A stretch of 63,679 nt of DNA, counting the filler, from Nemertoderma westbladi (Eukaryota; Animalia; Xenacoelomorpha): NCBI GenBank assembly GCA_032718475.1. It is 4 parts of 4 records of this genome, joined end to end, with 100 filler letters (N's around TTAATTAATTAA, not from the genome) between each part and the next. Parts side by side here need not be neighbours in the genome. Positions count along the whole stretch, not along the records: positions 13,526 to 44,285 come from JAUCBJ010002082.1; 3 more parts are not named here. One strand, 5' to 3'. The position numbers and the translations under genes were made by a program. The notes beneath the pieces were generated by a model. The model worked only from the letters and a program-made list of their open reading frames with translations. It ran no database searches and was not told the DNA's origin. Below are positions 2,360-57,800 of the stretch, piece by piece. The stretch's first letter is position 1; every line of letters starts with the position of its first letter.

Positions 2360-2377
2360 CAGCATCTGGAGTGGGTG

Positions 2378-17785: not shown

Positions 17786-20412
17786 TGTGATGAAAACAAT
17801 GTTGTCTAATGCCAGTTATCAATGTTAAAGATATTGTACAACATAAACTGCACTCAGAATAATCTCAATTACTGCAATCCGCCTAAGTACCGGTAGCCCG
17901 TTATCAACCCCAACACCAATCAGTTCTAGTACAGCAGTACTTACCGTACCGGTATACAGTACATCAGTCTATTGTTTTTCAGTCCAGAAAATCGACTTAG
18001 ATCCTACTTTTTCCCCACATCTCCCGCAGTTTTTTCATAAAAACTTTATCATATTTTACTTTCAGTTTCAAACTGTTTCAGTCGGCTTCAACATTCCTCT
18101 ATATATCGTCTCGGTGGGTGCACTGTTCGCTGTGGTCTTGATAATTTCTTTGATGATGATTCTATAACTGAGTCTTCACTGTCTTCGCTGCTACTATCAC
18201 TGTCATTATCGTGCGTCGTCTCGTGAACAACTGGTTTCTCTTCTTGTCGGTAGGTCTTTCTTACGTCATTCATGTGTCTTCTGACTCCATTTACAACTAC
18301 GGCCCACTTGTCTACTGTTTCGACTCGAACCGGGCCTCTTCACTTCTTCCAGCATTTTACATGTTGTCCAGGCTTTACATAGACCCAGTCTCCTGGCTGT
18401 ATCTTGTGTAGTGGCTTCGTCGTGTCGGTGCTCGTTTGTCCTATTGCTGTTTTGATACCCGGTAGCTTGGTACGTCTCTCCGCTAACCCTCGGAAACACA
18501 ATTCCGTGGGGGAACCGTCTTCTCCTCTACTTGTGGTATGATTGTACCAGAAAGTTGACTGTTCTAACGTTTTCCCCAAGCGAGCCGCCCACGTTTTTAT
18601 AGTGCGGTGTACCCGTTCGACCGGGTTGCCCTGTGGTCGATACGCACATATGTATGATATGTTTACTTCCCATTTACTGAGGAATTTCTGGAACTCGTAG
18701 CTCCAGAATGCCGGTCAGTGGTCAGCCATCACTATGTCTGGAGGACCCAATTCTGTGAAGATCTGCTGCATTTCTCGCACCACATTGCAAGCATTCTCGT
18801 TGGTTACACGACGTATTATGGTATACTTTGTTGCACAGTCCTTTATTGACAGATACTGCCGATTTCCATATTCAACGAAGTCTATTGATAGCCGATTCCA
18901 CACTTTTGAGGCCTTTGTACTCCCAGTCTTCCAATTCAACGGACTCGGATCTATGCTGAAGCATTGCTGGCATTCCCGACATATTTGTTCCACCATTTGT
19001 TTGTCTATTACTTCTTTCAGTTCAACGTCGCAATGACACATCTCCAATGTTCTCTCGATACCCGGATGGAATATGTTATGAATTTCTGTAATCCGTTTTC
19101 GATGATCTGAATCTACTGTTTCTTTGAGCTGCATTGTTGCCACAGCTGCTGCTAAGGGTTTTCTTTGATTTTCTTCGATACCATAGGGTTCGCTATTGCC
19201 AATTTTTAACCAATTCTTCGGAACTCTTGTTAGCGCATCTGCTTTGTTTAAATGTGTGGGTACTTGACATGGGTGGATCTTTAAGTCAAATTGCTGGATA
19301 GTGTTAGCGATTATATCCAGCCGTCTTGCTATTAATTTCCGCGATTGTCCCTTTGTTCTGATGCATGTTCAGATGTCTGTTCCAACATTTCCATAGCCAT
19401 CTGTCTAACTTTCGCATCGACGACATTATCCCATGCCATTTCTGCACAGCACCGCTGAATCCATGCGCACGCAGGCCTGATCGATCCTGCTATCGGATAG
19501 TGACCACGCAACTTCCCGCACAGCGAATATATTTCTCGTCTAGTTATCGTATCCGACACTTCCGTTGGTACCTCCAAGTCGCGATTCCGCTGCAGCGTAC
19601 CAGTATGGTCTTCTGTTATGTGGAGTCCTAATACTCGGCTTCCATGCTCGATTTTTTTCGCTGGTTTAGTCATCAGTCCGTACTTAGTCAAATGGTCGCG
19701 CACTTTGCCAGTCGAAATGCGTTCTGTATCGACGTAGATGTCATCTCTGAAGTTGTTAGTTGCTTTCTTCACTTCTACATCCTTTGATAACACTTTCTCC
19801 ACTATTCTATCCATGATTTTGGGTGCTGGTCCTATCCCAAACCCCATTACTGTAACCAAGTACTGAGTCCCATGGTATACCACGGTTTGAAAGGGTCTCA
19901 ATGCTTCAGTAATTCCTACCTGCATATAGGCCCATTTCAAGTCTAAAAGCACTGTTTTATTTCCCATACAGCGCCACTTACGCATTTTTTCGTTACAGGC
20001 AGCCGCTTCGCGACCTGGCGAGTTTTCCACATGCTGGTTCAACTCTCTGTAGTCCAATATGGGGCGGACTCTTTCTTTCTTCGGTTCATATTTAGACATG
20101 ATTGGAATAGTACCTCGCACCGCACCGTGTTTATCTGGGTCGTATGGTACCATCCAACTTTGCTGTACCCACTCTTCCATCCCCGATTCGAACATCCGCC
20201 GATGTTCCGGACGAATTTTGTACTCTGTTGCTCTATTTTGCAGCATCAGCTCCGAGTTGTTCTTCCACTTCCACTCAGCAACCCATTTATATCCATCGTA
20301 GGTAGCGCTAAAGTCTGACTCATCTAATTCGATTACCGGATTAGAGAATGGTTTGGCAACTTTGGGAGAAATGAAGCTCGCTGCTGCTCCGACCAGTTCC
20401 TTTGTATCCCTG
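17786..20412 (-). mobile_element. Gypsy-like LTR retrotransposon, 5'-truncated and decayed
   Basis: RT RPILDYRELN...LDLKWAYMQV...MGFGIGPAP...FRDDIY; NKADALTRV; integrase HNIFHPGIERT...C..C, SIDF, AYRPQGNPVERVHRTIK. PPT GCGGGAGA is followed by TGTGGGG at 18019. LTR end at 17786 is tentative. Confidence 0.82.
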
Positions 20413-20549
20413 CCCTGCAAACATTTTACGTTAATTACGCTAATCTAACGTTAGACTTTAGTCTGTTTTAGGTTAGAAAAATAAAGTTATAAAAATAACT
20501 TAGAACAAACGTTTTCTAACGTCTTATAATCGTTTAAAAACTACATGTC

Positions 20550-24555: not shown

Positions 24556-26340
24556 TTAATAGACTAGAATTTTAAAGGATCTAAAATTTGACAGATTTTA
24601 TAAATATTAATAATTAATATTTAGGATGGGCACCAGTTTATTCCAGAACTTGTCTGGGGACGTTAACCACTGATTCTAGAATTTTGTCTTTCAAGTATAT
24701 CGGTGGGTGCCGCGATATCTTAATCGACTAGAATTGCAGATGGTCAAAGGGTTTAACAGATTTATTTTGCGTTATACGCTACTGTTAAAGGGACATCACG
24801 CTACTATATGTATTATTTAATATACGGTATGAGAGCAATATCGCACGAAGCAATGTCAGTGAGAAGAGGCAAGTCGTTTCCAAGGTCTACCCAGAGCTTG
24901 GTTTAGCCGAGACAGGAGGATCTGAATTTTGCATTCCTAATACTCTACTTTACCAATAATACTTGAATATAGTAGGAGCTTTATTGTACTTTAATAAGTA
25001 CGGATATTTCATCTTACTGTAGTTACGTATTTGTAATGTAATACGGACAGTAAGGAAAGAGAAAAATAATTATTTCTCGCCGTCGCTGTAAATATATAAT
25101 ATGTAAATAATTAAGTAATAAGCACTAATATATTGCACTAATCTACTAAATAATCGCTAAAATAACATTCTACTAAATAAAATTAAAGAAAACGATTATA
25201 ATAAAATTACATAATAATACATACATAAATATAAAATAATAAGAATATAAAATAATATGGTCACACACCCACTCCATACGCTACTAAGCTGGGGAGTCCC
25301 TAGATGTTTGTTGGATTAGGGAGGTGGTCGTGGGAAGAGTATCTTGCCTTCCATAGTTTCCGGACAGTTCTCGGTCTCTTTCCAGTAAACATAAACGACA
25401 AACTGGGCGATTGAGGTGCTGTGTCTCGAAGACAATTCCCGGTTTCTTGAAGTTACGTCGCATGACGACGAGTTCTACCGATCGCACCAAACCATCATCC
25501 GAGATGTGAGTCTCGATGATACGACCTGTCTGCCACCGCTTACGTGGAAGATCTGAGTCCACAATAAGGACCATGTCTCCAGCGCTGACGTTTTCTTGCT
25601 GCGCAAACCACTTCGTTCGAAGTTGTAGCGTGGGCAGATAGTGTTTTTCGAAATGATCAGCGAAACGACGGGATAACAACTGCATGAGTTGCCAAGTTTG
25701 CCAGCAGTATTCGTCTCCGTCTGTGATTTCCGATTGTGGGGAGCATGGCTACAGGTTTCTTCAGTAGGAAGTGCGCGGGTGTTAGCGCTTCCAGGGAATC
25801 GGGACTCGATGAGACTGGCATAAGCGGTCTCTCGTTGAGATAGGCGGCGATTTCCTCCATTATCGTCCGCAAAAGTTCGTCGGTGAGATACGCGCGGCGG
25901 CACGGCACTATAAAGTGAAATGCGGTCTTCACGCTTCTAATTAATCTCTCCCAACTTCCTCCCCACCAAGGGGCGTCGGAGGCGTTGAAGGTCCAGCTAG
26001 AAGCTGTTACCCTTAGCTGATCATCCACCTGTCTTTGGTTCCAATCTTTGACGTAAGCTTTGATTTCATTGTTGGCACCAATGAAGTTTGTTCCCTTATC
26101 AGATCTCATCGTGTTACTAGTTCCAAAGCGAGCGATCTGTCGTCGTAAGCTTAATAGGAAGCTGTTGGTAGATAAATCGTTCACCATATCTAGATGGATA
26201 GCTCTACAAGTCATACAAACAAAGATGACGCACCATCTCTTGACTATAGTCCTAGCACGATATACTTCAATAGGGCCAAATAAATCTACACCGGTATTAG
26301 TAAAGGGTGGTTCATAGAAGCTTACTCGTTCCCTAGGTAA

Positions 26341-29300
26341 TTATGCCTCTCGCTGTGTTAAAGGCCTACTGAATGCTTTCCTACAGGGTATGCAGTTCCT
26401 AAGAACTTGGTTCAGAGCTCTACAGGGTTTATAAAAATAATAGCGAGTTCGAATTTCGCTAAGAACTCGTTCTCTACCACCATGATAAAGTTTGCTGTGA
26501 ACATCTACAATCATCTTGACTTGTATTTCAAGATTTCTAATGAGGATGGGGAACTTAGTGTCAAAGGATAATGGAGCATTCGTTAATCTTCCTCCAACAC
26601 GTATCAACCCATCTATCATTGTGCTAGAGAAACGATCCCTTAAGCGCATCTGGGGATTTCTCAACAACAGGAAATACTTATCGGAATCCTCATAGCATTG
26701 CAGGAGTCTCAGCATCTGCTTGTTGGTTTCTTCATGCTCCTGATAACTGATCTTCTCCTTCAGAAACCTGTCGGATATCTTATATTTGGGAAGATCTTTA
26801 ACAACATGGACCTGCACCGATGTCAGCGGAGCGGTATCACTATTGGTCTTCGTCCCGGAGTAGTGATGATGAAAACATCTTTTTAAATATGTAACGGCCT
26901 TACAGAGCCGATTCCAGGAACTGTAGTGATGTATCGCTCTCTGCAGGAGAGGTGAGAGTCCTTGCGAGACGTCTGGTATTCCAGATTTCCAATCCTTCTC
27001 ACGGATTTCCACAACAGACTTATTTATGGCTGTGGGTTTCTGATCCAAAGCGTCGTCTCCGGAAGTATGTAGTACAGACAGATCTACCATAGGTTTAAAT
27101 AACTTCGATTTACTCGCCCGAGTTTTAGGTTTGACTTTCTCCGCTCCCTTGGCCTGTCTGATCTCTGCCGTAGTAAGATGAGGAGGCCATTCTTCTTCTT
27201 CTTTATAGAGTAAGTCGGGTCCACCTAACCAGTCTGGAGTATCTACCAGTTCTTGTGGAGTTGCTCCCCTGGAGGCGATGTCTGCTGGATTAATCGTTCC
27301 GGGGCAATGTCTCCATTGATCCATCGTCGTGCGACTGAGTATAATAGGACCAGACTCACGGGAGTTGCTGGTGAATTTAGTTAATCGAAATCCACCTCTT
27401 TTTAAGCACTCTACCATTCCTTTAGCGACATCAATGGCTTCTTCGACTGATGGAAGGGACTTTAGATTGTCGTCCATGTATATATCCCGTTTGATGTTGT
27501 CAATCACCTCTTTAGAGAAGGCTTCTCGGTTGTCATCCGCAGTGGTGCGCACCACTGAACAGGCGTTTGAAGGGCTTGAGATTATCCCAAAAGCCTGGAT
27601 GGTCATCCAGTACTCCACCGGTTTCTGGTTGAGGTCTCCTTCAGGCCACCACAGAAATCGTAGGCTATCTCGATCCCTATCCAGCGCCTTGACTTGTAAG
27701 AACATGCCTTCTATATCTGAGGCGAAAGTGATTGAATATTGTCTTAATCTTAAGAGTATTCCCAACAAGGATTGGAGTAAGTTGGGTCCGGGTAACAATT
27801 CGGAATTAAGGGATTGGCCCATGTAGAGGGCGGAGCCGTCAAACACTACTCGTACCTCATGGGGTTTACCGGATTTGGGAACGTAATGGTGAGTTAAATA
27901 ATACGTTCTCTCAGTTATAGGTGTTTCTTCTGGTACTCGCTCCGCATATCCCTTGCTAATAAATTTCTTCAACTGTGTTTGATACATTTCTTTAGTTGAA
28001 GAATTTGCCGTAAGGCGTCGATGTAGTTGAGCAATTCTTTTCTCCGCCAAGGGTCTGTTGTTTATGAACTTTGGTTCTCGCTTTCGGAAAGGTAGACCGA
28101 TTTCATATCTACCTTGATCTTTAAGAAAACGTGTAGTTGTCTCTTGGATCTGCTTGGCTCTTTCTTCTTCTACCGATAGGGCCTTATCGTAGGAATTGGG
28201 CTCTACAGCCTCTTGAGTAAAGAATCGTACGGCGTGTTCATCCCGAGTTTTGGCATTATAACGTTCAATGACGTCATTCAGTTCGTCGTTATAGTCGTCT
28301 CGTTCTGATGGACGAAGGAGCTGACATAAGTTCACTCGGTTTTGCCAAGTCTCGTTTACCTTAAGGAGATCAATGGTATTCTCCTCGTCGAACAGTTGGT
28401 GGACATCGTCATTATCTGAGGAGTATGGCGTTCCCTCAGTTGGATCGTCTAACTCACTGCTCTCAACTTCCCATTCTCTTACTTGATATACCTGATCTTT
28501 CGGTAATCTTTCCATGAGAGTTCTACGGGAAGGGCCAGTAAAGTACCAACCCACTCTAGTTCTTCCCGCATAAGCTTGTAGTGGTTGCGGTTGAGCAGGC
28601 CGTTTCTCCAATGTCTCGAGCGCTTCATGCACGTTTTGACCCATGAGTATTTGCACTCCAGGGTAATCGGTGTTGAATCTAGGTATTTCAAGCTGCTGGG
28701 TGAAATCGTCCTCATCCCAGTTATAAGGTTCCACTTGGCTGGTAGCGAAGTTCTTTATCGCCACCATTTTTACTGACCTTATACTATGTTCTCCTAGTTC
28801 ATCCTGGGGGGTGGACAACGCACCTACATAATAATCCGCTATTACTGTAGATTTCCAAACCTGCATAATTCCTGACATATTTAGCTTAGTTCGGAACTTG
28901 GGTTGTCCAGCAAAGATGTCTTCGGCTAGTTCTTTGTCGATGAATGTTCCTGTGCTACCGGAGTCAAGGAGGGCGTTCACTATATAACTCCTTTTAGGTC
29001 CGTGGACCCTTAACTGTACTACAGGAAATTCTCGGATTCCTACATTGGAAGTTGGCGCTTTCCAAGATGGTTGTCTGTCAGAAGTAGTTAGGGTGAGGTC
29101 GCTGTCTGTGTCTTTTTCATATGTAAGTGCTCGATACACTGCGGTATTTATCATGTAACAGGATTCGTCTTCGTCGGAGAATTCGTCCGTATAGAATCCT
29201 TCCATCTCAGAACTTTGGTCAGTGTCATTCACATCACTGAATTGGACATGTAGTTCGGACTCACTTACCTGACTCGGGCTGTTTCGCTCGAATTCAGTGT

Positions 29301-29868
29301 GCAACAAGATATGATGTTTCGCACCGCACTTTGCACACCTTGTGTCGGAGTAACAGGTTCGCCGTTGGTGTCCTTGTCTGAGGCAATTATAACATAACCG
29401 CTTATCCCACATGACTTCCCGTCTATCCGTTAATGATTTCTTTAGGAATTCATCACACACGTTCAAACGGTGGGGCCCGTCACACAGCGCACATTTCGGT
29501 TTGATGTTACTTACCTTATTTTGAGTAACGTTGTGCACACTCGTTCTTTCTTCGGGCTTTCTTACCTGAATTCTCTTAGGAGACGTAGGAGGGGTTTTTC
29601 TTACCTGTTCTCTCCTGTCATTGGTTCGAGACCTGAATTTACTTACGTCTTTGGGCGTTTTGTTGACATAATAAGATCTTTCAGTGTCTTTCCCGCTGTC
29701 CTCTCCTTGAGAAGCCTGGCTTTCGCCGTCGTCGGTATAACACACTGGTGTTACCTTTCTCCTAGAAACGGGTTTCTCACTTACCTTGTTTTCCAGTGTC
29801 TTCTCTCTGGACTGCTTTAGGAGCTGTAATTTCACTTCTCCATCTAAGAATGACATGAGATCAGCCAT
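26341..29868 (-). CDS. BEL gag C-terminus/protease/RT polyprotein, 1175 aa, most of RNase H deleted in frame
   Basis: LTKFTSNSRE is joined almost directly to TTMDQWRHCPG. A premature TAA precedes the integrase core. Confidence 0.85.
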   Translation of the reverse strand: MADLMSFLDGEVKLQLLKQSREKTLENKVSEKPVSRRKVTPVCYTDDGESQASQGEDSGKDTERSYYVNKTPKDVSKFRSRTNDRREQVRKTPPTSPKRIQVRKPEERTSVHNVTQNKVSNIKPKCALCDGPHRLNVCDEFLKKSLTDRREVMWDKRLCYNCLRQGHQRRTCYSDTRCAKCGAKHHILLHTEFERNSPSQVSESELHVQFSDVNDTDQSSEMEGFYTDEFSDEDESCYMINTAVYRALTYEKDTDSDLTLTTSDRQPSWKAPTSNVGIREFPVVQLRVHGPKRSYIVNALLDSGSTGTFIDKELAEDIFAGQPKFRTKLNMSGIMQVWKSTVIADYYVGALSTPQDELGEHSIRSVKMVAIKNFATSQVEPYNWDEDDFTQQLEIPRFNTDYPGVQILMGQNVHEALETLEKRPAQPQPLQAYAGRTRVGWYFTGPSRRTLMERLPKDQVYQVREWEVESSELDDPTEGTPYSSDNDDVHQLFDEENTIDLLKVNETWQNRVNLCQLLRPSERDDYNDELNDVIERYNAKTRDEHAVRFFTQEAVEPNSYDKALSVEEERAKQIQETTTRFLKDQGRYEIGLPFRKREPKFINNRPLAEKRIAQLHRRLTANSSTKEMYQTQLKKFISKGYAERVPEETPITERTYYLTHHYVPKSGKPHEVRVVFDGSALYMGQSLNSELLPGPNLLQSLLGILLRLRQYSITFASDIEGMFLQVKALDRDRDSLRFLWWPEGDLNQKPVEYWMTIQAFGIISSPSNACSVVRTTADDNREAFSKEVIDNIKRDIYMDDNLKSLPSVEEAIDVAKGMVECLKRGGFRLTKFTSNSRESGPIILSRTTMDQWRHCPGTINPADIASRGATPQELVDTPDWLGGPDLLYKEEEEWPPHLTTAEIRQAKGAEKVKPKTRASKSKLFKPMVDLSVLHTSGDDALDQKPTAINKSVVEIREKDWKSGIPDVSQGLSPLLQRAIHHYSSWNRLCKAVTYLKRCFHHHYSGTKTNSDTAPLTSVQVHVVKDLPKYKISDRFLKEKISYQEHEETNKQMLRLLQCYEDSDKYFLLLRNPQMRLRDRFSSTMIDGLIRVGGRLTNAPLSFDTKFPILIRNLEIQVKMIVDVHSKLYHGGRERVLSEIRTRYYFYKPCRALNQVLRNCIPCRKAFSRPLTQREA

Positions 29869-31485
29869 GGTAGGGTCTCGTCGTTGCTGTTACATCATAT
29901 ATAACACTTTCTTATCCCAGCGTGTACCTACTCCACCCTTCGGTAAGGTAGAGGCCACAGCTCCAATAACTATAGAACTCTGATATTCATGAGACTTACC
30001 TAGCCAATCTAATTGTCTACAGATCTCTTGAATCTCATCGGAAAACTCTATTATCCCGCTGCTAATGAACTTTCGGGGCGCTACCAATTTTGCATACAAA
30101 TACCTAGCTATGTTATTCCTATTACCATACCTGATGTTTAGGGTATCCCAAACTTGTCTTAATCCATCGGGATGTCCAATAAACTTTAACGCCATTAACT
30201 TGGGAGATCCTTCCAAGCACTCGATGAGGAATCTAAGTTTCTCTCCGTTAGATAGCACAGAGTTCTGTATGTTATCTTTGTAATATTCATTAAAAGGTAA
30301 CCATTTCATCTCATCTCCATTGAACTTGACGATCTCTCCCACCTTTACCGCTTGACGGGCTTCGGTTCTAGCCATTTGACGCGTAAAACTTTCTTGGGCC
30401 ATCGTGTTATTTAATATCGAGTTATCGGTATATAAATTTCTCGGATTATTATCAAGTCTATATGGAATATCATTGTCAACAGGTTTATAATTACCCTTAA
30501 TAGGGTTTACTATAGGAGTTTCCACTTCGCTAGCAGTATAGATGCGTGTAGGCTCCACACCTTGCGCATGAAATACTTCAGACCTAACAGGTTGACACAT
30601 TGTTACAGGGGGTGGTGGTATACCCTTTTGTGTATTTACTAATTTATTGCGTTCTAACGCGATACTTTGCTGCACTTCTTGCAACTCTAACCTACTTTCC
30701 CTTACTGTGCCCTTGAACTGCTTAACAGTCTCCTGCATCTGCCCGAGCAGGAGATCCATCCCCCGCCGTCTCTCATCCACCCACTCGACCGCCGAAGCAG
30801 GAGTCGCCAACGTTGTAGCGGGCGGACGAGGGACAACGGGCGACAAATCATTAATATTTCGCTCGGAGTCCAAGACATAAACTGTCTCATGGGCTGTTCT
30901 GCTGGGTACAGGTAGCTTAGTGCTATGCAAAGAGAATTTAGAGGTAGGTTCTGGGAGTACAGGTGTCTCTATCACCGAAGGGGTGGCTTCGAGAACAGGC
31001 CTAATTATTTCAGGCTCATCTACTATAGTAGGGAGTCTGTCTATTTTAATAATTTGGTCTATGGGTTCTGTACTACCTAAGTCGGTGCTAGTTAGTTGTT
31101 TTCGAACAGCTGGGGGGCAAATCAGGCAATTTCTGACGGTGGGACATTCTTCTACGTCTGCTAAGACGAGATCTATTTCCTCCGCCTTCAGGATCGGTGG
31201 TATCGCCTTCCTCAGATGATGTATATCCTTGACTAGCTGTTAACTGTTTATTTATGCAGTCTTGATTCTCTTGAAGATTTTCCAACTCTAGTTGGGTTGT
31301 TTCTTCAGATGCCCTCCGTTCTGCTTCTGCCACTGCATCTGCCGCTGCCACTACCGCCTTTCTTTCCGCTTCGGCCGCTGCCACTGCCGCCTTTCTTTCC
31401 ACTTCTACCGCCTTTCTTTTTGCTTCTGCCTCTGCCGCTGCCGCTGCCGCCTTTCTTTCTACTTCTACCGCCTTTCTTTCCGCTT

Positions 31486-33499: not shown

Positions 33500-35306
33500 C
33501 TAGACGTAGATAATATCGAATTTGTAATGCTTAGCCAATGAGTCGTTATCTAGAAGTTTGCCTGAGAACTTCATAGCATCGGTATCTGTTGCCAAAGCAA
33601 CAACACCTTTCCCTGGAGACTCCATGGTAGCTGGTTTCATTACCCCGAACCACGGACCGATGTACTTAATAAACTTATCTTCGTGTGGTTCCCAATGTCC
33701 GCTGTCAATCTTCCGTTTAAACTTCTCCACATATGACGTCATTATGAATCCGGGTTGTAACCCGACAACGACTACATTATGGGGCCGCAACTCAATGGCC
33801 ATCATCCGTGTCATCCTATCCAACCCGGCTTTGACCATACTGGCCGCGAGGCCGGTCCCGGCGTAGTAGTCGGGGTTGTCCCCACCGTCCGACGCCGCTC
33901 CTTTGCTCCGTAAATGCTTTATCTGTTCGTCCGATAAGTCGGTAGTGCTGACAATTAGACCGCCGCCCTTAGTAAGGGATATATGGATGGTAGCGAGACA
34001 ACAGGTTAAAGTACCGAAACAGGTTATTTATAATATACAGGCCTACATCATGTAGGGGAGAGAATGGGGGGGGGGGGGGGGGGGAATACCATCTCGGCGA
34101 ATTAATATCGCGTCTTAATGATAAATTATCAATTAAGTGAATGGAAAGAACCAGGTTACAGTGGCACTCAGTGTATTAATTAAAATTCAGTGACATCCCT
34201 CCCCCACAATTATCCACTTAATCTTCAGGGTGTCTCTCTGGGTTTGGGTGTAACCCCTCGGGAGGTTGTTTTTTAAAACATCTGAAAGACCGTGTTTTAG
34301 GTCAATACATCAGTTATTTGGTGTTATGTTAACGTGGGGAGGCTAAAAATGTACTGTCTCTATCTACATTTCACTAAAAACACCACTAGTCTCTTAATAT
34401 TTATTCTAATTTGTTGAAACTTTGTTGTCTTTTTTTGGAATGTACAAAAACACTCCAGCAGATCTTATAAACTATAATTTTTTAATTAAATTAATCAATA
34501 ATATTTGAACAAAAATTTAAAATCGTGCTGGAGTGATTTTCAAGATCCAAAAACCATTCAAATGAGCCATAAATTATAGAATTTGGGTACAAAATGACGG
34601 AGGAGTATAGTAATATGAAAATTTGAACAAGTAATTATTTGATAATTTCATTTAAAGTTTGACAATTTCCGCTCAAAACTGCCGACTTATTTGGAAAAAC
34701 AACAGATCGTTCTCATCGTTGAAATAAATGGATTGTATGGGATTGTTCGTCCTCTGACATTATGATAATTTGAATTTTTGACAATTTGTAACGAATTAAT
34801 TAGATTCCCAGCTCCCCACTGTTGTTACCTTATTGTAAAACTCATGTTGTCAAGCTACATTCACATCCCTGTTTTATCATCATTTTAGCAGCTAACGAAG
34901 AAGCGATGTAGTGAACATTCAGTCCACTGCTCGACATTCTACTAAACGTATCGATCGGCCATTCCCAGAAAGGCGATCCTAATTGACCGTTATACAATAA
35001 CCCAGTAGGGAAACAATGATTCACCAGAATATCCAATCGTTTCTCTTTCTCCTCTATCGATTTAAATACAGAAATTATGTCTTCTTCTTTAGAATGATCG
35101 CATTTAATCGCTGTGACTTTTCCGCCTCTCTTCGCCGCCTCTTCTACAACCTCATCCAACGACATCCCCGGTTGATCTGGTTTCCGTTCTTTCGTTCGCG
35201 CGGTTATGTAGACCTTCGCTCCGGCGTCTGATAGTTGGAGTGCGATTCCCTTTCCGATACCAGTAGAGGCTCCGGTTACTAAGGCAACTTTACCTTTCAG
35301 AGACAT
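33500..35306 (-). CDS. DHRS1: DHRS1-like short-chain dehydrogenase/reductase, two visible exons
   Basis: Exon 1 (35306 to ~34868) has VTGASTGIGKGIA, KCDHS, LDILVN and PFWE. Exon 2 (~33968-33500) has GLIV...KAGLDRMT...ELRPHNV...PG...GKGVVALATD. The splice donor is unresolved. Confidence 0.82.
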
Positions 35307-37309
35307 GATGTTTAAAAAGTAAACAAAAAAGAAAATAATAAGAGGAGAAATAGACAAAGACGATGATTTTTTAAATAACAAATTATGCTGAATCCGAATC
35401 TGATATCAGTTGTTCCATTGGTTGCAATATCAGTTGTTTTCGAGTTATTGGACACCTGAACGACTATCAAATACAAAAACATTTAGAAATATTCCGCAGT
35501 TTTTGGAATTAAGGCCTCAAAAGTATTTTATACTTTATTGCATCCAAATCTTTAAGCAATGACAAAAAATAAGTTTACTTTTGACAATGTAATGTTAAAG
35601 ATGTTTATATTATTGTACAATGACTAAATCGAAATAGATTTTTGACGACGTTTTTCAATCGACCTTTAAACTGTGCAATAAAATTGTATCATTGTTAGCA
35701 AAAATAGGGAAAAACAAACGTTTTATACAATAATTTGTGTTGACTGAATTTTGTTTCTAAAAACGTTATGGCGCATTTCGTATTATACAGTACGGTAAGT
35801 CAGTCCCGCATAATATTTTTATGTTCACATAAAAATTTGCACGGAATGTTTGTTTACATAATAACTCTAGAACTAAACAACTTATCGAAAAACCGATCTC
35901 AGATCCCGAAAAATCACTTTTTTACATCTGCATAATAATAATTATTTATTATATTAAAGTCATTCCCAAACAAAAAATATAACTGATGATAAAGATAGGC
36001 CTACACCTAGAAGGCAAAAACACCAACAACAAATAAAAAACAGTATACAGTACAGTAAATACAGCATATAATATACTGCGGGTTTTAATAGAATAGGCTA
36101 ATTGAACTGCCGAATAGACCCTATACTACTGTATGTACAAAATTATACGCACACACAGACCGGTCATCAACAAACAGAAACGTGATTGTCGCAAGTTTGT
36201 GGTGCTGCTTCCCTTTGGTTAGTTACAGAGCGTCTCTCTTCATTCATCTTTCCCCTTGAGAATACATTCAGCTGCGGAATGAAACCTACAATCAGCTGAC
36301 GTCTACGCCCATTTGCTTTTTAGTTTTTTTAAATGGTTTGGTCCTAGCATAACTACCGGTTGAGGTTTTTACTTAACGTGTTTCAAAAATAAAATAAATA
36401 TAATATGTAATTTACAAAATTTAGTTGAACATAACAAACAATGTTCAATGTGGCAACTAAATGAAAAATTTTAACCAACAGATATTCGAAACTGTTTAGG
36501 TTACTCAACAATGATGCAATAGTTAGTTGCGCAACATGTGTATGTTTATGTAATAATTACTAGATTAGCTATAATAAACTATAAAGGATCGACAGATGTT
36601 TTACTAAAGGTCTATCAATTATTATTCCATTAATTAATAATTAGCGAGAATACTGACGCTGTCCCCAGATGTTCCCATAATTTATTCTTATTATGTAATA
36701 AACGAAACTTAAGTAAACTATGAACATTTCTTAACTAATTAATATGCTTATGTATAGTGGTCCTTTTTCTCAATGGGAGCTATTTATTATGTTGCACATG
36801 GTGTTAAATATTTTATTTTTGGGAAAGTTCTACCCCACACCGTTTATATAACATACTAGTACACAAGTACATGCGCCGACACCAGTTCAAGTTTAAATTG
36901 CACTGCGGACACCAGCGCAAGTACCACTAGCGAAATTAGTAATCGGGTGTAGTTTCACAAATTCTAATAGCTAAGGTACCATACAAATAGCCGACACCAG
37001 TGCAAGTATCGCTAGTATCACAAGTGCTGGTACCGGGGTGAGTACTACAGTAGTACCGACACTGCAATGACCAATTAGATATAAGTATAGTCGAAGGACA
37101 ACATTGTTTAGTCATGACAACGTGTGAACATTGCTATAGATAAGAAATAAAATATTATAATATAAGCATTCTCATTGGATAATATTTGTTTAATAATCGC
37201 CGTGACAATGTGTGAAAACCTTGAGGGTATAGATAAAATAATTTTTTTGAATTCTTTATTCATTATATCATTTTTGTTTGGGAATGTCTTGTATGCAATA
37301 AAACAGAAA

Positions 37310-37822
37310 ATGTTTACTACATTGCAATCTGAAAGTAATTATTACTGCGGCGCTAATTCAATTATACCAATTAGAGTTGAGTTGTTATCCGCTACAGCGC
37401 GAGCACCAGTTTGTGGGCCTTATTGTCCCGCTGGAATAGATATTTTCAGCGCCGTAAATAGAACGATAGAGCCACACACGCGAATGCTCATTGGAACAGG
37501 CATTAAATTATATCTTCCACCCAATTTCTATGGAAGAATTTCTCCACCGTTCGCGCTATCGCAAATTGGGATTGATGTTCTGGAAGGTATATTAGATTCA
37601 AAACCGGCATGCGGGAATATAGATAAACTTATGGTTATTTTAATTAACAACTCACACCGAGAGTACACCGTATCTATTGGAGATAAAATAACCCAAATTA
37701 TCTTTGAACGGAGCAATGCTCCAATACTATATGTTTCTGAAGTTCGTACCGACGCCGAAGACCGTTTTAAGCTTCCAACGCTGGTATCGTATGAAAATGA
37801 AGTTAATTGTTCTTATTATTAA
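37310..37822 (+). CDS. Intronless dUTPase-like protein with degenerate catalytic motifs
   Basis: AGIDIFS, IGTGIKLYLP, YGRISP, GILDS, VILIN and GDKITQIIFE match the trimeric dUTPase fold. Likely start is the ATG at 37310. Confidence 0.82.
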   Translation: MFTTLQSESNYYCGANSIIPIRVELLSATARAPVCGPYCPAGIDIFSAVNRTIEPHTRMLIGTGIKLYLPPNFYGRISPPFALSQIGIDVLEGILDSKPACGNIDKLMVILINNSHREYTVSIGDKITQIIFERSNAPILYVSEVRTDAEDRFKLPTLVSYENEVNCSYY

Positions 37823-38364: not shown

Positions 38365-38586
38365 CTAATCTAATACATATACTATATATATAATCTAATA
38401 CATATACTACATATATAATCTAATACATATACTATATATATAATCTAATACATATACTATATATATAATCTAATACATATACTATATATATAATCTAATA
38501 CATATACTATATATATAATCTAATACAGTACATATACTATATATATAATCTAATACATATACTATATATATAATCTAATACATATA
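38365..38586. repeat. 25-bp AT-rich minisatellite
   Basis: CATATACTATATATATAATCTAATA repeated about eight times. Confidence 0.92.
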
Positions 38587-39177
38587 ACTTATATTTATAT
38601 AAAGTGAATTAGAACCAGATCATAATTATTACATTTATCATTGGAAATATATTGAATATATATACTGTAATTGGAAAACAAACTATATCTAATTGCATCT
38701 CATTATTATACATTAACTTTTCTTGAACTATAAGAAAGAAGGTTTATAGACCCGATGAATTAAACCTATTGAATCTTTGAATATCTCCAATGAAAGTAAC
38801 AATGTGTTGGCAAGCTGTATTTTTCGAGGTGTTTGTTATTATACATTTTATTATAAGAAGGGATCTAGGGGTCTATGAGATATTAATTTCAAGAAAAATT
38901 ACGCGATTCCTAAATTTGTACACTACCCGGTTAAAAAGTACGCATGTGATGGGATTAGTCCTACAATTGCGCCAATAAAAGATAAGTTATTTTCGGTAAA
39001 ATAAACTTATCATTCGAGGTTAAGACCCCTAGATCCCTTCTTATAATAAAATGTATAATAACAAACACCTCGAAAAATACAGCTTGCCAACACATTGTTA
39101 CTATCAATAATCAAAAATCAGGGGCTAATAAAATGGCAGCTGTCTTTGAAATTAATACTCCATATCTCAAGAACCTG

Positions 39178-39230
39178 TGGCCTAGTGGTTGTAGTCTCGG
39201 CTTCGGCCTCGAGGTCCCAGGTTCGAATCC
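39178..39230 (+). promoter_or_regulatory. tRNA-type Pol III internal promoter (A and B boxes), repeated every 412 bp
   Basis: A box TGGCCTAGTGG at 39178-39188 and B box GGTTCGAATCC at 39220-39230, with a GGC-TTCG-GCC hairpin between. No complete acceptor stem. Confidence 0.85.
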
Positions 39231-39233
39231 GAC

Positions 39234-39276
39234 ACCACGCTGATGAGACCCAGTAAGGTCGAAACGCGTACGTGGT
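39234..39276 (+). ncRNA. Minimal type I hammerhead ribozyme, copy 1
   Basis: Stem I ACCACG/CGTGGT; core CTGATGA; stem II GACC-CAGTAA-GGTC; GAAA; palindromic stem III ACGCGT; predicted cleavage after GUA at 39270. Confidence 0.92.
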
Positions 39277-39645
39277 TTGGAGAGATATGAGATATTAATT
39301 TCAAGAAAAATTACGCGATTCCTAAATTTGTACACTACCCGGTTAAAAAGTACGCATGTGATGGGATTAGTCCTACAATTGCGCCAATAAAAGATAAGTT
39401 ATTTTCGGTAAAATAAACTTATCATTCGAGGTTAAGACCCCTAGATCCCTTCTTATAATAAAATGTATAATAACAAACACCTCGAAAAATACAGCTTGCC
39501 AACACATTGTTACTATCAATAATCAAAAATCAGGGGCTAATAAAATGGCAGCTGTCTTTGAAATTAATACTCCATATCTCAAGAACCTGTGGCCTAGTGG
39601 TTGTAGTCTCGGCTTCGGCCTCGAGGTCCCAGGTTCGAATCCGAC

Positions 39646-39688
39646 ACCACGCTGATGAGACCCAGTAAGGTCGAAACGCGTACGTGGT
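39646..39688 (+). ncRNA. Minimal type I hammerhead ribozyme, copy 2
   Basis: Same sequence as copy 1. Confidence 0.92.
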
Positions 39689-40057
39689 TTGGAGAGATAT
39701 GAGATATTAATTTCAAGAAAAATTACGCGATTCCTAAATTTGTACACTACCCGGTTAAAAAGTACGCATGTGATGGGATTAGTCCTACAATTGCGCCAAT
39801 AAAAGATAAGTTATTTTCGGTAAAATAAACTTATCATTCGAGGTTAAGACCCCTAGATCCCTTCTTATAATAAAATGTATAATAACAAACACCTCGAAAA
39901 ATACAGCTTGCCAACACATTGTTACTATCAATAATCAAAAATCAGGGGCTAATAAAATGGCAGCTGTCTTTGAAATTAATACTCCATATCTCAAGAACCT
40001 GTGGCCTAGTGGTTGTAGTCTCGGCTTCGGCCTCGAGGTCCCAGGTTCGAATCCGAC

Positions 40058-40100
40058 ACCACGCTGATGAGACCCAGTAAGGTCGAAACGCGTACGTGGT
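40058..40100 (+). ncRNA. Minimal type I hammerhead ribozyme, copy 3
   Basis: Same sequence as copy 1. Confidence 0.92.
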
Positions 40101-40469
40101 TTGGAGAGATATGAGATATTAATTTCAAGAAAAATTACGCGATTCCTAAATTTGTACACTACCCGGTTAAAAAGTACGCATGTGATGGGATTAGTCCTAC
40201 AATTGCGCCAATAAAAGATAAGTTATTTTCGGTAAAATAAACTTATCATTCGAGGTTAAGACCCCTAGATCCCTTCTTATAATAAAATGTATAATAACAA
40301 ACACCTCGAAAAATACAGCTTGCCAACACATTGTTACTATCAATAATCAAAAATCAGGGGCTAATAAAATGGCAGCTGTCTTTGAAATTAATACTCCATA
40401 TCTCAAGAACCTGTGGCCTAGTGGTTGTAGTCTCGGCTTCGGCCTCGAGGTCCCAGGTTCGAATCCGAC

Positions 40470-40512
40470 ACCACGCTGATGAGACCCAGTAAGGTCGAAA
40501 CGCGTACGTGGT
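40470..40512 (+). ncRNA. Minimal type I hammerhead ribozyme, copy 4
   Basis: Same sequence as copy 1. Confidence 0.92.
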
Positions 40513-40881
40513 TTGGAGAGATATGAGATATTAATTTCAAGAAAAATTACGCGATTCCTAAATTTGTACACTACCCGGTTAAAAAGTACGCATGTGATGG
40601 GATTAGTCCTACAATTGCGCCAATAAAAGATAAGTTATTTTCGGTAAAATAAACTTATCATTCGAGGTTAAGACCCCTAGATCCCTTCTTATAATAAAAT
40701 GTATAATAACAAACACCTCGAAAAATACAGCTTGCCAACACATTGTTACTATCAATAATCAAAAATCAGGGGCTAATAAAATGGCAGCTGTCTTTGAAAT
40801 TAATACTCCATATCTCAAGAACCTGTGGCCTAGTGGTTGTAGTCTCGGCTTCGGCCTCGAGGTCCCAGGTTCGAATCCGAC

Positions 40882-40924
40882 ACCACGCTGATGAGACCCA
40901 GTAAGGTCGAAACGCGTACGTGGT
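40882..40924 (+). ncRNA. Minimal type I hammerhead ribozyme, copy 5
   Basis: Same sequence as copy 1. Confidence 0.92.
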
Positions 40925-41135
40925 TTGGAGAGATATGAGATATTAATTTCAAGAAAAATTACGCGATTCCTAAATTTGTACACTACCCGGTTAAAAAGTA
41001 CGCATGTGATGGGATTAGTCCTACAATTGCGCCAATAAAAGATAAGTTATTTTCGGTAAAATAAACTTATCATTCGAGGTTAAGACCCCTAGATCCCTTC
41101 TTATAATCCAATGAAAGTGGCGCTGTGCAATTAGC

Positions 41136-41825
41136 ATGCGAATCTCAGCTCAGCGGTATGAGCTCTGGCTCATACAAGAGCTTTGCTTAGCGTTGCACTG
41201 CTCAATTGGATTTTGCTTCACTTGTAAATTTGGATCAACCTACAATTACACAAATGAAAACGAAGATATCGAAAATAAGGTCCAATCATATATTAACCGC
41301 CTATTATTTGCAAACTTCGGAGACACAATCCCCTTCATTGTAAATCATTGCGAAGACCAATGCGGATTTCTAAGCATGAGATTCCTTGGATACGTCATGG
41401 AGAATGATGTTAAGTTCAAGGGTATGTTGGAATGGAATTCATACAGTTGCAAGTCGGGGGACAATGCGAATCCATGTTCTAACCCAGAAGGATTCCAATG
41501 CGAATCAGTATTCACTTCTCCTCAGGCGGCAGATCAAATACTGAATGGTTTCGGTGATCTTTTCTTCAAAGTGAAAGAAATTTACAAGAGTCAGATGACA
41601 CTCACAAAGGAAATTTGTCAATTTGATTGCTGTAACAGTACTTGCTCTGCTTTTGAATGGGACGCAGCTGACTCATTTACATCACGTCCAACTACCGTAG
41701 CAGCAACTACTGACAAGGCAACCACTAGCGTTGTCGATTACACCACGACGATGAATGGGTCTGCAAACAACATCTCATCAATGATACAACTAGCCGTGAT
41801 CATCACAATGTGTGTAATCTTTTAG
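41136..41825 (+). CDS. Cys-rich, probably secreted and GPI-anchored protein (Ly6/uPAR-like pattern)
   Basis: Moderately hydrophobic N-terminus, CFTC...C...C...CQFDCCN, a Thr-rich stalk, then NGS and a hydrophobic C-terminal tail. Open 229 codons. Confidence 0.72.
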   Translation: MRISAQRYELWLIQELCLALHCSIGFCFTCKFGSTYNYTNENEDIENKVQSYINRLLFANFGDTIPFIVNHCEDQCGFLSMRFLGYVMENDVKFKGMLEWNSYSCKSGDNANPCSNPEGFQCESVFTSPQAADQILNGFGDLFFKVKEIYKSQMTLTKEICQFDCCNSTCSAFEWDAADSFTSRPTTVAATTDKATTSVVDYTTTMNGSANNISSMIQLAVIITMCVIF

Positions 41826-42899: not shown

Positions 42900-44281
42900 C
42901 CAATGTGGATAATGCCGTAAAGTTGGGGTTGGAGTCGGCAAGGGCATTCAAATCAACTCTCCCAAATGGTTCACTACAAAGAAGCAACACCCTAAAGTAT
43001 TCAACCTTCCCCCCCACACAGAGTGCCGCTGTACAACATGTAAAATGGGCTCGTTTTCAAGTTCTTTTGTGGAGAGCTGCTGATGATCCTGCACCTCCAC
43101 TGTTGGCTGTTAACAAGTTTGGTTGGATAAAAAGTAAAGTAGACATAAAAAGTAAAGTAAAACGTAAATTTTCTTCGGCCGCTAGGCCAGGGATTACGCA
43201 CAAAGTCTGACAACTTATTTCCAGTGCGGTCCCCCAGAACTTTACTCCACAGAGGAAACTCCAGTACTCATTTAGCTACCATTTAAGGATGCAAAGCAGA
43301 GATGCGCCCTGGCTGGTCCCTTTAAAGCATTCGTGCCGAAACGAAAGCTGCCCTGGCCCATTTGAGGATCGAACCCACGACCTACAGGAGATGTGAATTC
43401 AATGCAACCACTACACCAAGGTGGAACTATCAATGACCGATGGATAGCGATCAATGACAAACTGATACCGGATCCTGGCGTCTCATCCATTGCCCCAATT
43501 TCGATCCTTAAAACTATATCTTGTAATTGCAAGTCCGAAAGTGCCTGTTCTGCCAATCGATGCGGCTGCTCTATAGCCGCTCTACCATGTACTACAATAT
43601 GCACCTGCACCACTTCAAGGTGTAAAAATAAATACAATGTCTAAAGCGATGTTCCGTTTAAATAAATAATTTAATAAACATACAACTCTTCTAGCTGATT
43701 GATTAACTTTCGTAATACCAGTAATGGAGAGTATATTTGGGATAGATACCCAGATAGGTACACAGTAAAGAATGATGGCACATTGAATCTACTGTACCTA
43801 TATTCTGCAATCGTTGGATAGATACACGTCAAAATTTGCATTTGAAAGGAGAAAACTAACTCATCTAATTAAATGAAAACTAACTTTGATTAATAACCCC
43901 CCAGTGATGATATAATTGTTTGCTTTTATAAATAGTTACATAAATAATCTAAAGTTTAATAGTTGGCATATCTTAATAAACATCCCAAAGGCCAAAATTT
44001 ATGATTAATAATGTTGCTATGGGAACTAATCTTCTAGAAATCTTATTCAGAATAATTAACAAGAGCTGTGGCAATAGGTGCAAGGTCGCAGATATCTCAA
44101 AATAAAACCTTGTGTGCCGGTTGCTATGGAAACTTAGGTTAAGTGCTTTATAAAAAGTTCCCCAAAGGTGCCAAAGTGGCACCCGACGGATTTTGATTAC
44201 TCTAAGGTCCGACTAAAGTTTAAGCAAATAAAAATGCGTGATGACCCAAAGTCACGGTGGACCCCTCTGTTTACCTGACTA
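42900..44281 (+). mobile_element. Academ-like DNA transposon 3' remnant
   Basis: FPPTQSAAVQHVKWARFQVLLW...FGW...ISCNCKSESACSANRCGCSIAALPCTTICTC (Cys8 finger). Candidate terminus ...TTTACCTGACTA reads TAG on the minus strand. Confidence 0.65.
43130..43440 (-). mobile_element. tRNA-derived SINE inserted in the Academ-like ORF
   Basis: A box TGGTGTAGTGG, B box GGTTCGATCC, ACTTT tail; TSD TGGATA at 43124-43129 and 43441-43446. Removing it restores FGWIAINDK. Confidence 0.88.
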
Positions 44282-56697: not shown

Positions 56698-57800
56698 ATG
56701 CAAAGCGGAGGCGATTTTGTTCTAGTGTCAAGCTTGGGGGAACCAATGAGACACCTCCAATGTTATATAGTGTCTGGTTGGTGATGTGTGCATTGAACTT
56801 GACACAATGAACCCGGCGTAGCATTCTTGTGAATGTGCCATCCAGAGATTTGGTGTCCTCAGCAGGTAGAGCCCAGCATGGACTCCCATAGAGGAGTACT
56901 GGAACTACTGCTGCTCTAAATAACCGGACCTTAAGTTTCCGATTAATTCTCGGTGACTTTCAAATCCTCGAAAGCCTATTCAAGGCTGCCCATGCCTTTC
57001 CCTTACGTATTCGAAGGCCCTCACCTGACTTCCGGATCCATGATCCCAGGTAACAGAAGTCATCCACATGCTCAAGCATAACATATTTTGAGCTTATGCT
57101 CATCCGATCAGAGACTTGCTGAGGACTTTCAAAGTTAACTGTCAAAATTTTGGTCTTTCTGGAGTTAATAAAAAGACCAACACTAGAAGCAGCATGTTCT
57201 AATGAGCTGAGGAGCCGTTGGGCTCCCTCTAGTGATTCTGAGAGTACTCCTAATTCATCAGCAAAGTCTAGATCAGTTAGGTACTTGGCAGGATTTCCTC
57301 GACTTCTGGAGCCAGTAGGTGGAGTTATCATCACCCCATCATCATTGTGATGATCCAAGGACATGCGTAGAACATAGTCAACAACAATTATGAACAAGAA
57401 TGGTGCAAGTGTGTCTCCTGGAGGACGCCCCATAACACTTCAAATGGTTCTGTGTCACCGCCAACAGTAGACACAAATGTTGTCGAACCATCGTATACTG
57501 ATCTGATTGCTGCAATAATTTCATCAGGAATCCCATATAATGAAAGTATGCTGAACATACGTGAGCGAGAGACTGAATCAAAGGCCTTGAAGAAGTCAAC
57601 AAAGATAACAGCCAGATGCCTGTCTTTCTTTTTTGATAACTCTTCAATTATCCTTCTAAGTGCCAAAAGGGGCTCCATGGTCGCACGACCTTTACGGAAC
57701 CCATTCTGATTTCCACGGAGCAGTCTCTCAATGGGATCCCTGATGCGATTTAATAGAATTGTATAGCTTTGCAGCAATCGAGATCAATGAGATTCCCCGA
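56698..57800 (-). mobile_element. RTE-like LINE RT fragment replacing part of the 3' LTR
   Basis: NQNGFRKGR, FVDFFKAFDSV, GVLQ/GDTLAPFLF, DLDFADE and FCYLGS; frameshifted. Confidence 0.9.

What the first reader, a model, noticed from the sequence alone, without database searches (positions are those of the whole stretch)
39146..39304. tRNA-like head and ribozyme are interlocked within one long stem
Seen: the end of the B box (TCCGA) can pair with TTGGA after the cleavage site, extending stem I in competition with a T-arm. The anticodon-arm position holds a C(UUCG)G tetraloop. TTGAAATTAATA-CTC-CATATCTC pairs with GAGATATG-AGA-TATTAATTTCAA to enclose the module. The rest of the unit is also hairpin-rich (GATAAGTT.../...AACTTATC, TTCGAGGT/ACCTCGAA, ACAGC-TGCCA/TGGCAGCTGT). 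The only T4 run I found is near 39399-39403. Inference: a highly paired RNA selected for structure, where Pol III read-through of a weak terminator would give multimers.
Basis: partly seen in the sequence, partly recalled or inferred. Interest (0 to 1): 0.72.

Follow-up and report, generated by a model that had tools for sequence, protein, structure and literature searches.

The report
tRNA-headed hammerhead retrozyme array
This is an array of five identical copies of a small, likely mobile repeat whose tRNA-like promoter boxes overlap a hammerhead ribozyme predicted to cut mainly when two copies pair; the general design is already known from blood flukes and other animals.

Summary
The finding is one unit of a perfect 412-bp tandem array (38874-41107, 5.4 copies). 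An 11-bp target-site duplication flanks it and a 77-nt inverted piece lies at its left end. Each unit has A and B boxes 9 nt before a type I hammerhead core.

Confirmed: the long stems (module z -6.9, circle z -5.1), and the B-box end forming the outer part of helix I.

Not supported:
- T-arm competition (2 of 5 pairs possible, probability 0).
- A selected UUCG loop (not formed in the fold; other runs carry different bases in 93-100% of depth).
- Excess structure in the rest of the unit (z -1.0).

Best reading: a non-LTR retrozyme with a Pol III head, like Schistosoma Sm-alpha, probably copied by a Penelope-type enzyme. Transcription, cleavage and circles are not shown. Covariation could not be tested. 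The scan noted this kind before on two other genomes. New member of a known kind; interest 0.35.

The parts
38787..38797 (+). Left copy of the 11-bp target-site duplication
   Evidence: The 11-mer occurs exactly twice in the window, at 38787 and 41108
38798..38874 (-). 77-nt inverted piece of the unit (reverse complement of 39435-39511) at the left end of the insertion
   Evidence: The target 3' end matches the unit just past this piece at 6 of 7 bases. It carries the same rare base as the array at the 39453-equivalent position
38874..41107 (+). Tandem array, period 412, 5.4 copies, five complete head+ribozyme modules
   Evidence: TRF 100% matches; 0 mismatches among 5 copies
39146..39168 (+). 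5' arm of the long enclosing stem (upstream of the likely Pol III start)
   Evidence: Pairs with 39282-39304, probability 0.94-0.97
39171..39241 (+). tRNA-derived head; folds as a long hairpin 39171-39224, not a cloverleaf
   Evidence: ARAGORN finds it only at a threshold lowered to 80% or less; none at default; no Rfam tRNA match
39178..39188 (+). A box
   Evidence: box consensus recalled
39220..39230 (+). B box; 5' half pairs with 39171-77, last three bases belong to outer helix I
39228..39281 (+). Type I hammerhead: outer helix I 39228-32/39277-81, inner helix I 39234-39/39271-76, core from 39240, helix II 39247-60, predicted cut after A39270
   Evidence: Rfam Hammerhead_HH9, 26.6 bits, E 3.6e-4, below the gathering score of 52; pairings checked
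39264..39269 (+). Palindrome ACGCGT: one-pair helix III in a monomer, 6-bp helix III between two copies
   Evidence: Duplex -9.5 kcal/mol; constrained folds
39282..39304 (+). 3' arm of the enclosing stem; in the cleaved monomer it pairs with the next copy's 5' arm and holds the two ends together
39271..39682 (+). Predicted monomer RNA, cut site to cut site (412 nt, 39% GC)
39402..39405 (+). Only T4 run on the sense strand (minimal possible Pol III terminator)
   Evidence: not fewer than chance
39458..39523 (+). A+C-richest part of the unit; ends of other family copies cluster near its two borders, and both ends of this insertion map here (candidate reverse-transcription start region)
   Evidence: Loose-end table (18 of 502 rows shown); composition
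41108..41118 (+). Right copy of the target-site duplication
   Evidence: an X4 contig ends its match at 41107 and runs on 226 nt without fitting the element end

Best explanation
This is one insertion of an abundant non-coding tandem repeat with tRNA-type A and B boxes joined to a type I hammerhead, most likely a Pol III-driven non-LTR retrozyme that is predicted to cut as a double hammerhead and is probably copied by a Penelope-type reverse transcriptase.

Shown: unit anatomy, array, target duplication, inverted end, and many related contigs in three DNA runs.

Inferred cycle:
1. Pol III starts just before an A box and reads through the lone T4 into the next copies (about 0.7).
2. Helix III has one pair, so two neighbouring ribozymes pair through their palindromes and cut after 39270 and one unit on (about 0.6).
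3. The 412-nt monomer has its ends held together by helix I and the enclosing stem and is closed by a host ligase (about 0.6). A lone circle would cut poorly.
4. An enzyme primes inside the A+C-rich stretch and copies round the template several times. The other target strand primes a short second copy, which gives the inverted end (about 0.65).

The boxes lie at the 3' end of the monomer, beyond the inferred priming region, so only circular or multimeric templates would give a new copy with a promoter. The 'interlock' is the ordinary outer helix I of a type I hammerhead, here built partly from the B box because the ribozyme sits 9 nt behind it.
For: - Array, target duplication and inversion.
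- All five copies and the inverted piece share bases that are rare in the family, which fits one template molecule.
- 3659, 1416 and 88 contigs laid in X1, X3 and X4.
- A probable empty site in X4.
- Core and helices are intact in 5 of 5 modules, with an Rfam HH9 match below the gathering score.
- In two-unit RNAs the double hammerhead costs 0 kcal/mol over the free fold, while two single ones cost 11.2. A single one in the circle costs 5.6.
- The axolotl Amex1 type has the same helix III and cleaves better as a dimer (PMC7229834).
- A Pol III promoter plus hammerhead in tandem is described for Sm-alpha (PMC6765202).
- An inverted 5' copy is typical of Penelope-like insertions (PMC8557442). 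A Penelope-like enzyme starts at two internal sites in an AC-rich stem-loop (PMC11167929).
Against: - No transcript, cleavage or circle was observed.
- The double-hammerhead helix III has only 0.07-0.14 of the ensemble in three two-ribozyme contexts and 0.0 in the longest Pol III-start RNA.
- Helix I of the first ribozyme drops to 0.55-0.58 in longer Pol III-start RNAs.
- The internal loop of helix I is shrunk against the HH9 consensus, so the loop contact that speeds cleavage may be weak.
- In Xenopus only 1 of 9 predicted retrozyme dimers cleaved (bioRxiv 2026.07.22.740005).
- No Penelope-type ORF was found among 46 of 52 ORFs scanned in the window, and the genome is not held.
- The two end clusters coincide with family polymorphisms that can break contigs, and only 18 of 502 rows were visible.
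- A review states that metazoan retrozymes seem to lack promoters (PMC7761336).
Confidence: 0.7

Rival explanations
1. Same element, but the array grew at the DNA level (unequal exchange after a short insertion) or came from a linear multimeric RNA; circles are not needed.
For: The Xenopus study argues for local amplification of retrozyme arrays. Identical copies are also expected after recent homogenisation. A Penelope-like enzyme used unprocessed RNA in vitro.
Against: The inverted piece shares a rare base with all copies and the target duplication is intact, so the whole structure is young. Circles are shown for retrozymes of coral, mussel and axolotl.
Confidence: 0.25
2. The A and B boxes are a relic of a captured tRNA or SINE head. 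The RNA is made by read-through from host promoters, and the head is kept only as structure.
For: The review proposes read-through for retrozymes. The cloverleaf is lost. The array sits 18 nt before a 229-codon ORF whose promoter could be nearby.
Against: Both boxes are intact and at tRNA spacing in all copies. No variant of 5% or more falls inside either box. Sm-alpha is reported as Pol III-transcribed.
Confidence: 0.2
3. One reading: the RNA switches between a tRNA-like fold (T-arm, UUCG-capped anticodon arm) and the ribozyme fold.
For: The B box does overlap outer helix I, and the CTTCGG letters are present.
Against: T-stem 2 of 5 pairs and acceptor 1 of 7. Forcing the T-arm costs 13.8 and forcing UUCG costs 8.5 kcal/mol. 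UUCG is absent from most family copies.
Confidence: 0.05
4. The perfect five-fold array is partly an assembly product, and the real copy number at this locus differs.
For: The window has N gaps, and no laid contig spans the unit or the array.
Against: The copies carry rare bases rather than the family majority, which collapse towards a majority would not give. Both junctions are clean and share the target duplication.
Confidence: 0.08

Closest known systems
Schistosoma Sm-alpha / Sj-alpha SINE-like hammerhead repeats (PMC6765202 passages; PMC2770079 passages; Sm-alpha t-2 sequence seen in the supplement of PMC8490949; the original paper PMC108972 is not held)
   Same: A tRNA-derived Pol III promoter followed by a type I hammerhead, in tandem units of a few hundred bases. 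The promoter ends up at the 3' end of the cleaved monomer, so tandems are needed. Helix III is short.
   Different: The B box is 9 nt from the core here, against about 38 nt in Sm-alpha t-2 (counted by eye), so only here does the B box supply part of helix I. The unit is 412 nt against 335 nt. Sequence homology was not tested by alignment.
Metazoan non-LTR retrozymes (Cervera and de la Pena 2020, PMC7229834; parts 2-4 of 6 read, supplement unreadable)
   Same: Tandem 150-450 bp units, a type I hammerhead in each, GC under 50%, target duplication over 4 bp, no ORF, self-paired predicted circle. Helix III is like the dimer-dependent axolotl Amex1.
   Different: It carries clear A and B boxes, which a review says retrozymes seem to lack (PMC7761336 passages). 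Circles and cleavage are not shown here.
Penelope-like elements and their non-autonomous partners (PMC8557442 passages; PMC11167929 parts 1-2 of 4; bioRxiv 10.64898/2026.07.22.740005 parts 1-3 of 5)
   Same: Tandem insertion with an inverted truncated copy at the 5' end, a type I hammerhead, and ends in an A+C-rich internal region.
   Different: No coding region and no partner identified. The left junction shows 6 of 7 base microhomology, whereas the anole enzyme primed without homology in vitro.

Membership tests
Metazoan non-LTR retrozyme | Type I hammerhead in each tandem unit | tested here: met
   5 of 5 complete modules; HH9 match 26.6 bits, below the gathering score
Metazoan non-LTR retrozyme | Unit of 150-450 bp, GC under 50%, no coding region | tested here: met
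   412 bp, 39% GC; no ORF of 120 codons or more inside the array
Metazoan non-LTR retrozyme | Target-site duplication longer than 4 bp | tested here: met
   11 bp
Metazoan non-LTR retrozyme | Stable self-paired circle predicted | tested here: met
   z -5.1, 0 of 200 shuffles; 59% paired against 55% in shuffles
Metazoan non-LTR retrozyme | Self-cleavage of the transcript | not testable with these tools
   Needs run-off transcription
Metazoan non-LTR retrozyme | Expression as circular RNA | not testable with these tools
   Only contigs could be laid, and they cannot show ends or strand
Sm-alpha-type Pol III hammerhead SINE | A and B boxes directly upstream of the hammerhead | tested here: met
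   39178-88 and 39220-30, core at 39240; no such box pair by the same patterns elsewhere in the window
Sm-alpha-type Pol III hammerhead SINE | Transcription by Pol III | not testable with these tools
   Inferred from the boxes
Sm-alpha-type Pol III hammerhead SINE | Sequence homology to Sm-alpha | not tested
   Compared by eye only; the spacing differs
tRNA gene | Cloverleaf with acceptor and T stems | tested here: not met
   Acceptor 1 of 7, T stem 2 of 5; ARAGORN 0 at default; no Rfam tRNA match
Non-autonomous Penelope-like element | Inverted truncated copy at the 5' end of a tandem insertion | tested here: met
   38798-38874
Non-autonomous Penelope-like element | Two internal start sites / tail | tested here: inconclusive
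   Ends cluster near 39458-71 and 39522-23, but these overlap polymorphisms and 18 of 502 rows were shown
Non-autonomous Penelope-like element | Shared terminal sequence with an autonomous element in the same genome | not testable with these tools
   No whole genome held; none among 46 of 52 window ORFs scanned

The most novel reading that the evidence does not exclude
Promoter and ribozyme have fused into one 110-nt cassette that is read twice: as DNA the B box recruits Pol III, and as RNA the same bases build helix I, while the old tRNA fold has been replaced by a hairpin. A one-pair helix III makes cutting depend on tandem copies, so multimers are cut but monomer circles stay shut. Two fixed internal priming sites show a Penelope-type enzyme rolling round the circle. 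The element would then answer two points left open for animal retrozymes: where their transcription starts, and why their circles do not cut themselves.
Probability: 0.3. Interest if true: 0.55.

Novelty: new member of a known kind. Interest (0 to 1): 0.35.

Why it matters
Animal retrozymes are abundant, but their promoter, the block on self-cutting in circles, and their mobilising enzyme are mostly inferred. This locus holds testable marks for all three in 2.3 kb: intact Pol III boxes, a ribozyme predicted to need a partner copy, and insertion scars (target duplication, inverted end, internal end points). It is a good test case, not a new class. A Pol III head plus hammerhead in tandem has been described for schistosomes since 1998, and this scan has noted the kind on two other genomes.

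Tried and rejected
- Covariation: not possible. B-box + core patterns gave 2 loci in viral contigs, 12 in metagenome contigs and 4 in prokaryote genomes. None of the 14 loci matched the unit beyond one 19-nt hit; the 4 were not examined further. An exact ribozyme pattern gave 0. The family in runs X1, X3, X4 and X5 is too uniform, and variants cannot be phased.
- Expression: no RNA holder listed. X5 (RNA only by guess, organism B) has one 441-nt contig that closes on itself over the unit. It also holds the neighbouring high-copy SINE at similar low depth and nothing on the nearby ORF. Trace DNA fits this, so I do not count it as a circle.
- Terminator avoidance: T4 count 1 against 1.5 expected; rejected.
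- Energy sets: the loaders had no effect. In one search they changed the best-fold energies but not the probabilities, so all probabilities are Turner 2004 only.
- The two-pair helix III constraint implied a 2-nt loop. It was redone with one pair and gave the same value.
- tRNA isotype: against 30 microbial tRNA calls, Gly(TCC) ties with Gln for best score with the majority bases; not decided.
- The neighbouring ORF has no Pfam match and no homologue, so the organism was not placed.
- Earlier-findings look-ups by sequence and by place returned nothing.
- I found no paper describing a B box inside hammerhead helix I in eight searches. The library lacks most subscription papers and Repbase/Dfam, PMC108972 is not held, and the supplement of PMC7229834 could not be read; it may show similar invertebrate elements.

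Full report
WHAT IS THERE. The finding is one module of a perfect tandem array, period 412, from 38874 to 41107 (5.4 copies). Five copies compared showed 0 mismatches. The window looks eukaryotic and rich in mobile elements: BEL/Pao-type, THAP, DDE and RT domains, plus an SDR and a glutamine amidotransferase gene in pieces. The organism was not placed. Each full module has an A box (39178-88), a B box (39220-30) and, 9 nt later, a hammerhead core at 39240 with the predicted cut after A39270. Rfam gives no match at gathering level but aligns Hammerhead_HH9 at 26.6 bits, E 3.6e-4. Box and core consensus are recalled; the HH9 alignment is from the call.

CHECK OF THE OBSERVATION. The stems are real and beyond chance: z -6.9 for 39146-39304, z -5.1 for the circle, z -3.2 for the inner module alone. 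The B-box end does extend helix I (probability 0.96). In the HH9 alignment this helix sits where the normal outer helix I lies, with the internal loop shrunk. It has no competitor: 2 of 5 T-stem and 1 of 7 acceptor pairs are possible, and the 5' half of the B box pairs with 39171-77 at probability 1.0. The head is tRNA-derived in sequence, since ARAGORN finds it at a threshold of 80% or less, but it folds as a hairpin.

The UUCG loop is not formed under four energy sets (best folds). It is private to this array: the family mostly has other bases at 39205-06, which turn ARAGORN's anticodon-position call from tcgg to tcca. The rest of the unit is no more structured than shuffles (z -1.0). The one T4 run (39402-05) is what chance gives.

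After GAAA comes CGCG-TA, so helix III is one A-U pair capped by a palindromic tetraloop. Two copies can form a 6-bp helix III (-9.5 kcal/mol). In two-unit RNAs the double hammerhead equals the free minimum, while two single hammerheads cost 11.2 kcal/mol, and a single one in the circle costs 5.6. Against this, the dimer helix holds only 7-14% of the ensemble in three contexts and 0% in the longest Pol III-start RNA. The axolotl Amex1 ribozyme has this helix III and cleaves poorly alone but well as a dimer (PMC7229834).

An 11-mer found only twice in the window flanks the array (38787, 41108). Inside the left copy lies a 77-nt inverted piece of the unit. The target's 3' end matches the unit just beyond that piece at 6 of 7 bases, as second-strand priming on the RNA would predict (twin priming, recalled). 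All copies share bases that are rare in the family, and the inverted piece shares the one it covers, so they likely come from one template. An X4 contig reaches 41107 and runs on 226 nt without fitting the element end, probably an empty site. Its depth (74 against about 28 nearby) allows a paralogue, and its letters were not shown.

The family is abundant: 3659, 1416 and 88 contigs laid in three DNA runs. The best-supported loose ends cluster near 39458-71 and 39522-23, the A+C-richest part of the unit. This insertion also ends there (39459-equivalent on the right, 39511-equivalent on the left). None of the 18 rows shown of 502 lies at the cut site. The clusters overlap polymorphisms, so this is suggestive only.

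MECHANISM. Most likely Pol III starts before an A box and reads through the T4. Neighbouring ribozymes then cut as a pair. The monomer's ends are held by helix I and the enclosing stem and are closed by a host ligase, as RtcB did in vitro for axolotl and mussel retrozymes. A Penelope-type enzyme then primes internally and copies several rounds. Such enzymes start at two internal sites in an AC-rich stem-loop (PMC11167929), and their insertions often carry an inverted 5' copy (PMC8557442). Every step of this cycle is inferred; only the DNA anatomy and the folding predictions are shown. Rivals are DNA-level array growth or a linear multimer template (0.25), relic boxes with host read-through (0.2), assembly inflation (0.08) and the tRNA/ribozyme switch (0.05). 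The first two alter single steps and are not fully exclusive of the main reading.

COMPARISON. It meets the sequence-level criteria for a metazoan non-LTR retrozyme (PMC7229834); cleavage and circles are untested. It works like Sm-alpha, where a Pol III promoter precedes a hammerhead in tandem units (PMC6765202) and the head is tRNA-like (PMC2770079). In Sm-alpha t-2 the B box is about 38 nt from the core (by eye), so the overlap seen here is a local variation. It is not a tRNA gene. A 2026 preprint links retrozymes to Penelope pseudo-LTRs but found cleavage in only 1 of 9 elements. A review says retrozymes seem to lack promoters, which gives this case some value as a test.

Papers seen: PMC7229834 parts 2-4 of 6 and passages; bioRxiv 10.64898/2026.07.22.740005 parts 1-3 of 5; PMC11167929 parts 1-2 of 4; passages only of PMC6765202, PMC2770079, PMC8557442, PMC8490949 (plus supplement search and part 7), PMC10886601, PMC7761336 and PMC3088659; nothing of PMC108972. 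Two earlier notes of this scan describe the same kind on other genomes. I read them after forming my view and did not test them.

VERDICT. Observation partly confirmed, interpretation partly supported. New member of a known kind, interest 0.35. A side lead from the control scans, hammerheads predicted to cut at the -1 base of tRNA-His in tRNA clusters of viral and metagenome contigs, is listed under Noticed in passing and may deserve its own follow-up.

Noticed in passing
L001:628-768 (same contig as L047), L004:424-553, L005 minus strand, L121 minus strand; also L024 minus strand: In tRNA clusters of viral and metagenome contigs, a type I hammerhead sits directly before tRNA-His. Its 5-6 bp helix I puts the predicted cut exactly one base before ARAGORN's position 1, the -1 base of tRNA-His (G in three contigs, U in one): 4 distinct contigs. 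In L024 the cut falls at position 1 of tRNA-Tyr. Possible ribozyme-made tRNA 5' ends. Two searches (listings only) showed no paper on it.
   Followed up: partly
window 43124-43440, minus strand: A second very high-copy repeat, a tRNA-headed SINE with A and B boxes and a short-repeat tail. Runs X1, X3 and X4 show a joint 43123 to 43441 that skips it (empty site). Its head aligns with the retrozyme head better than 500 of 500 shuffles, probably through the shared boxes.
   Followed up: partly
window 41136-41825 +: A 229-codon single ORF starting 18 nt after the target duplication: Cys-rich, with a Thr-rich stretch and a hydrophobic C-terminus like an anchored surface protein. No Pfam match, no homologue. 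The array may sit in its promoter or 5' UTR.
   Followed up: partly
window 39195-39303, run X4 record 17: A diverged copy in a contig of depth 401 covers this stretch with 11 differences; X4 variants at that depth include core positions 39242, 39262 and 39269, so it is probably a dead ribozyme subfamily.
   Followed up: no
window 25287-31239 - and 1046-4445 +: A BEL/Pao-type retroelement (DUF1759, integrase zinc finger, DUF5641) with a decayed inverted copy about 25 kb away.
   Followed up: no
window 10451-11890 +, 19335-20444 -, 56963-57783 -, 60282-60944 +: THAP plus transposase-like RNase H pieces, an RT with DUF7047, a second broken RT, and a DDE_1 transposase piece.
   Followed up: no
window 37166-37822 +, 33503-35405 -, 14838-16252 -: A dUTPase ORF, a short-chain dehydrogenase in pieces, and a glutamine amidotransferase gene resembling GMP synthase, in pieces.
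   Followed up: no
window 38366-38599: An AT-rich 25-bp tandem repeat (9 copies) about 190 nt left of the insertion.
   Followed up: no
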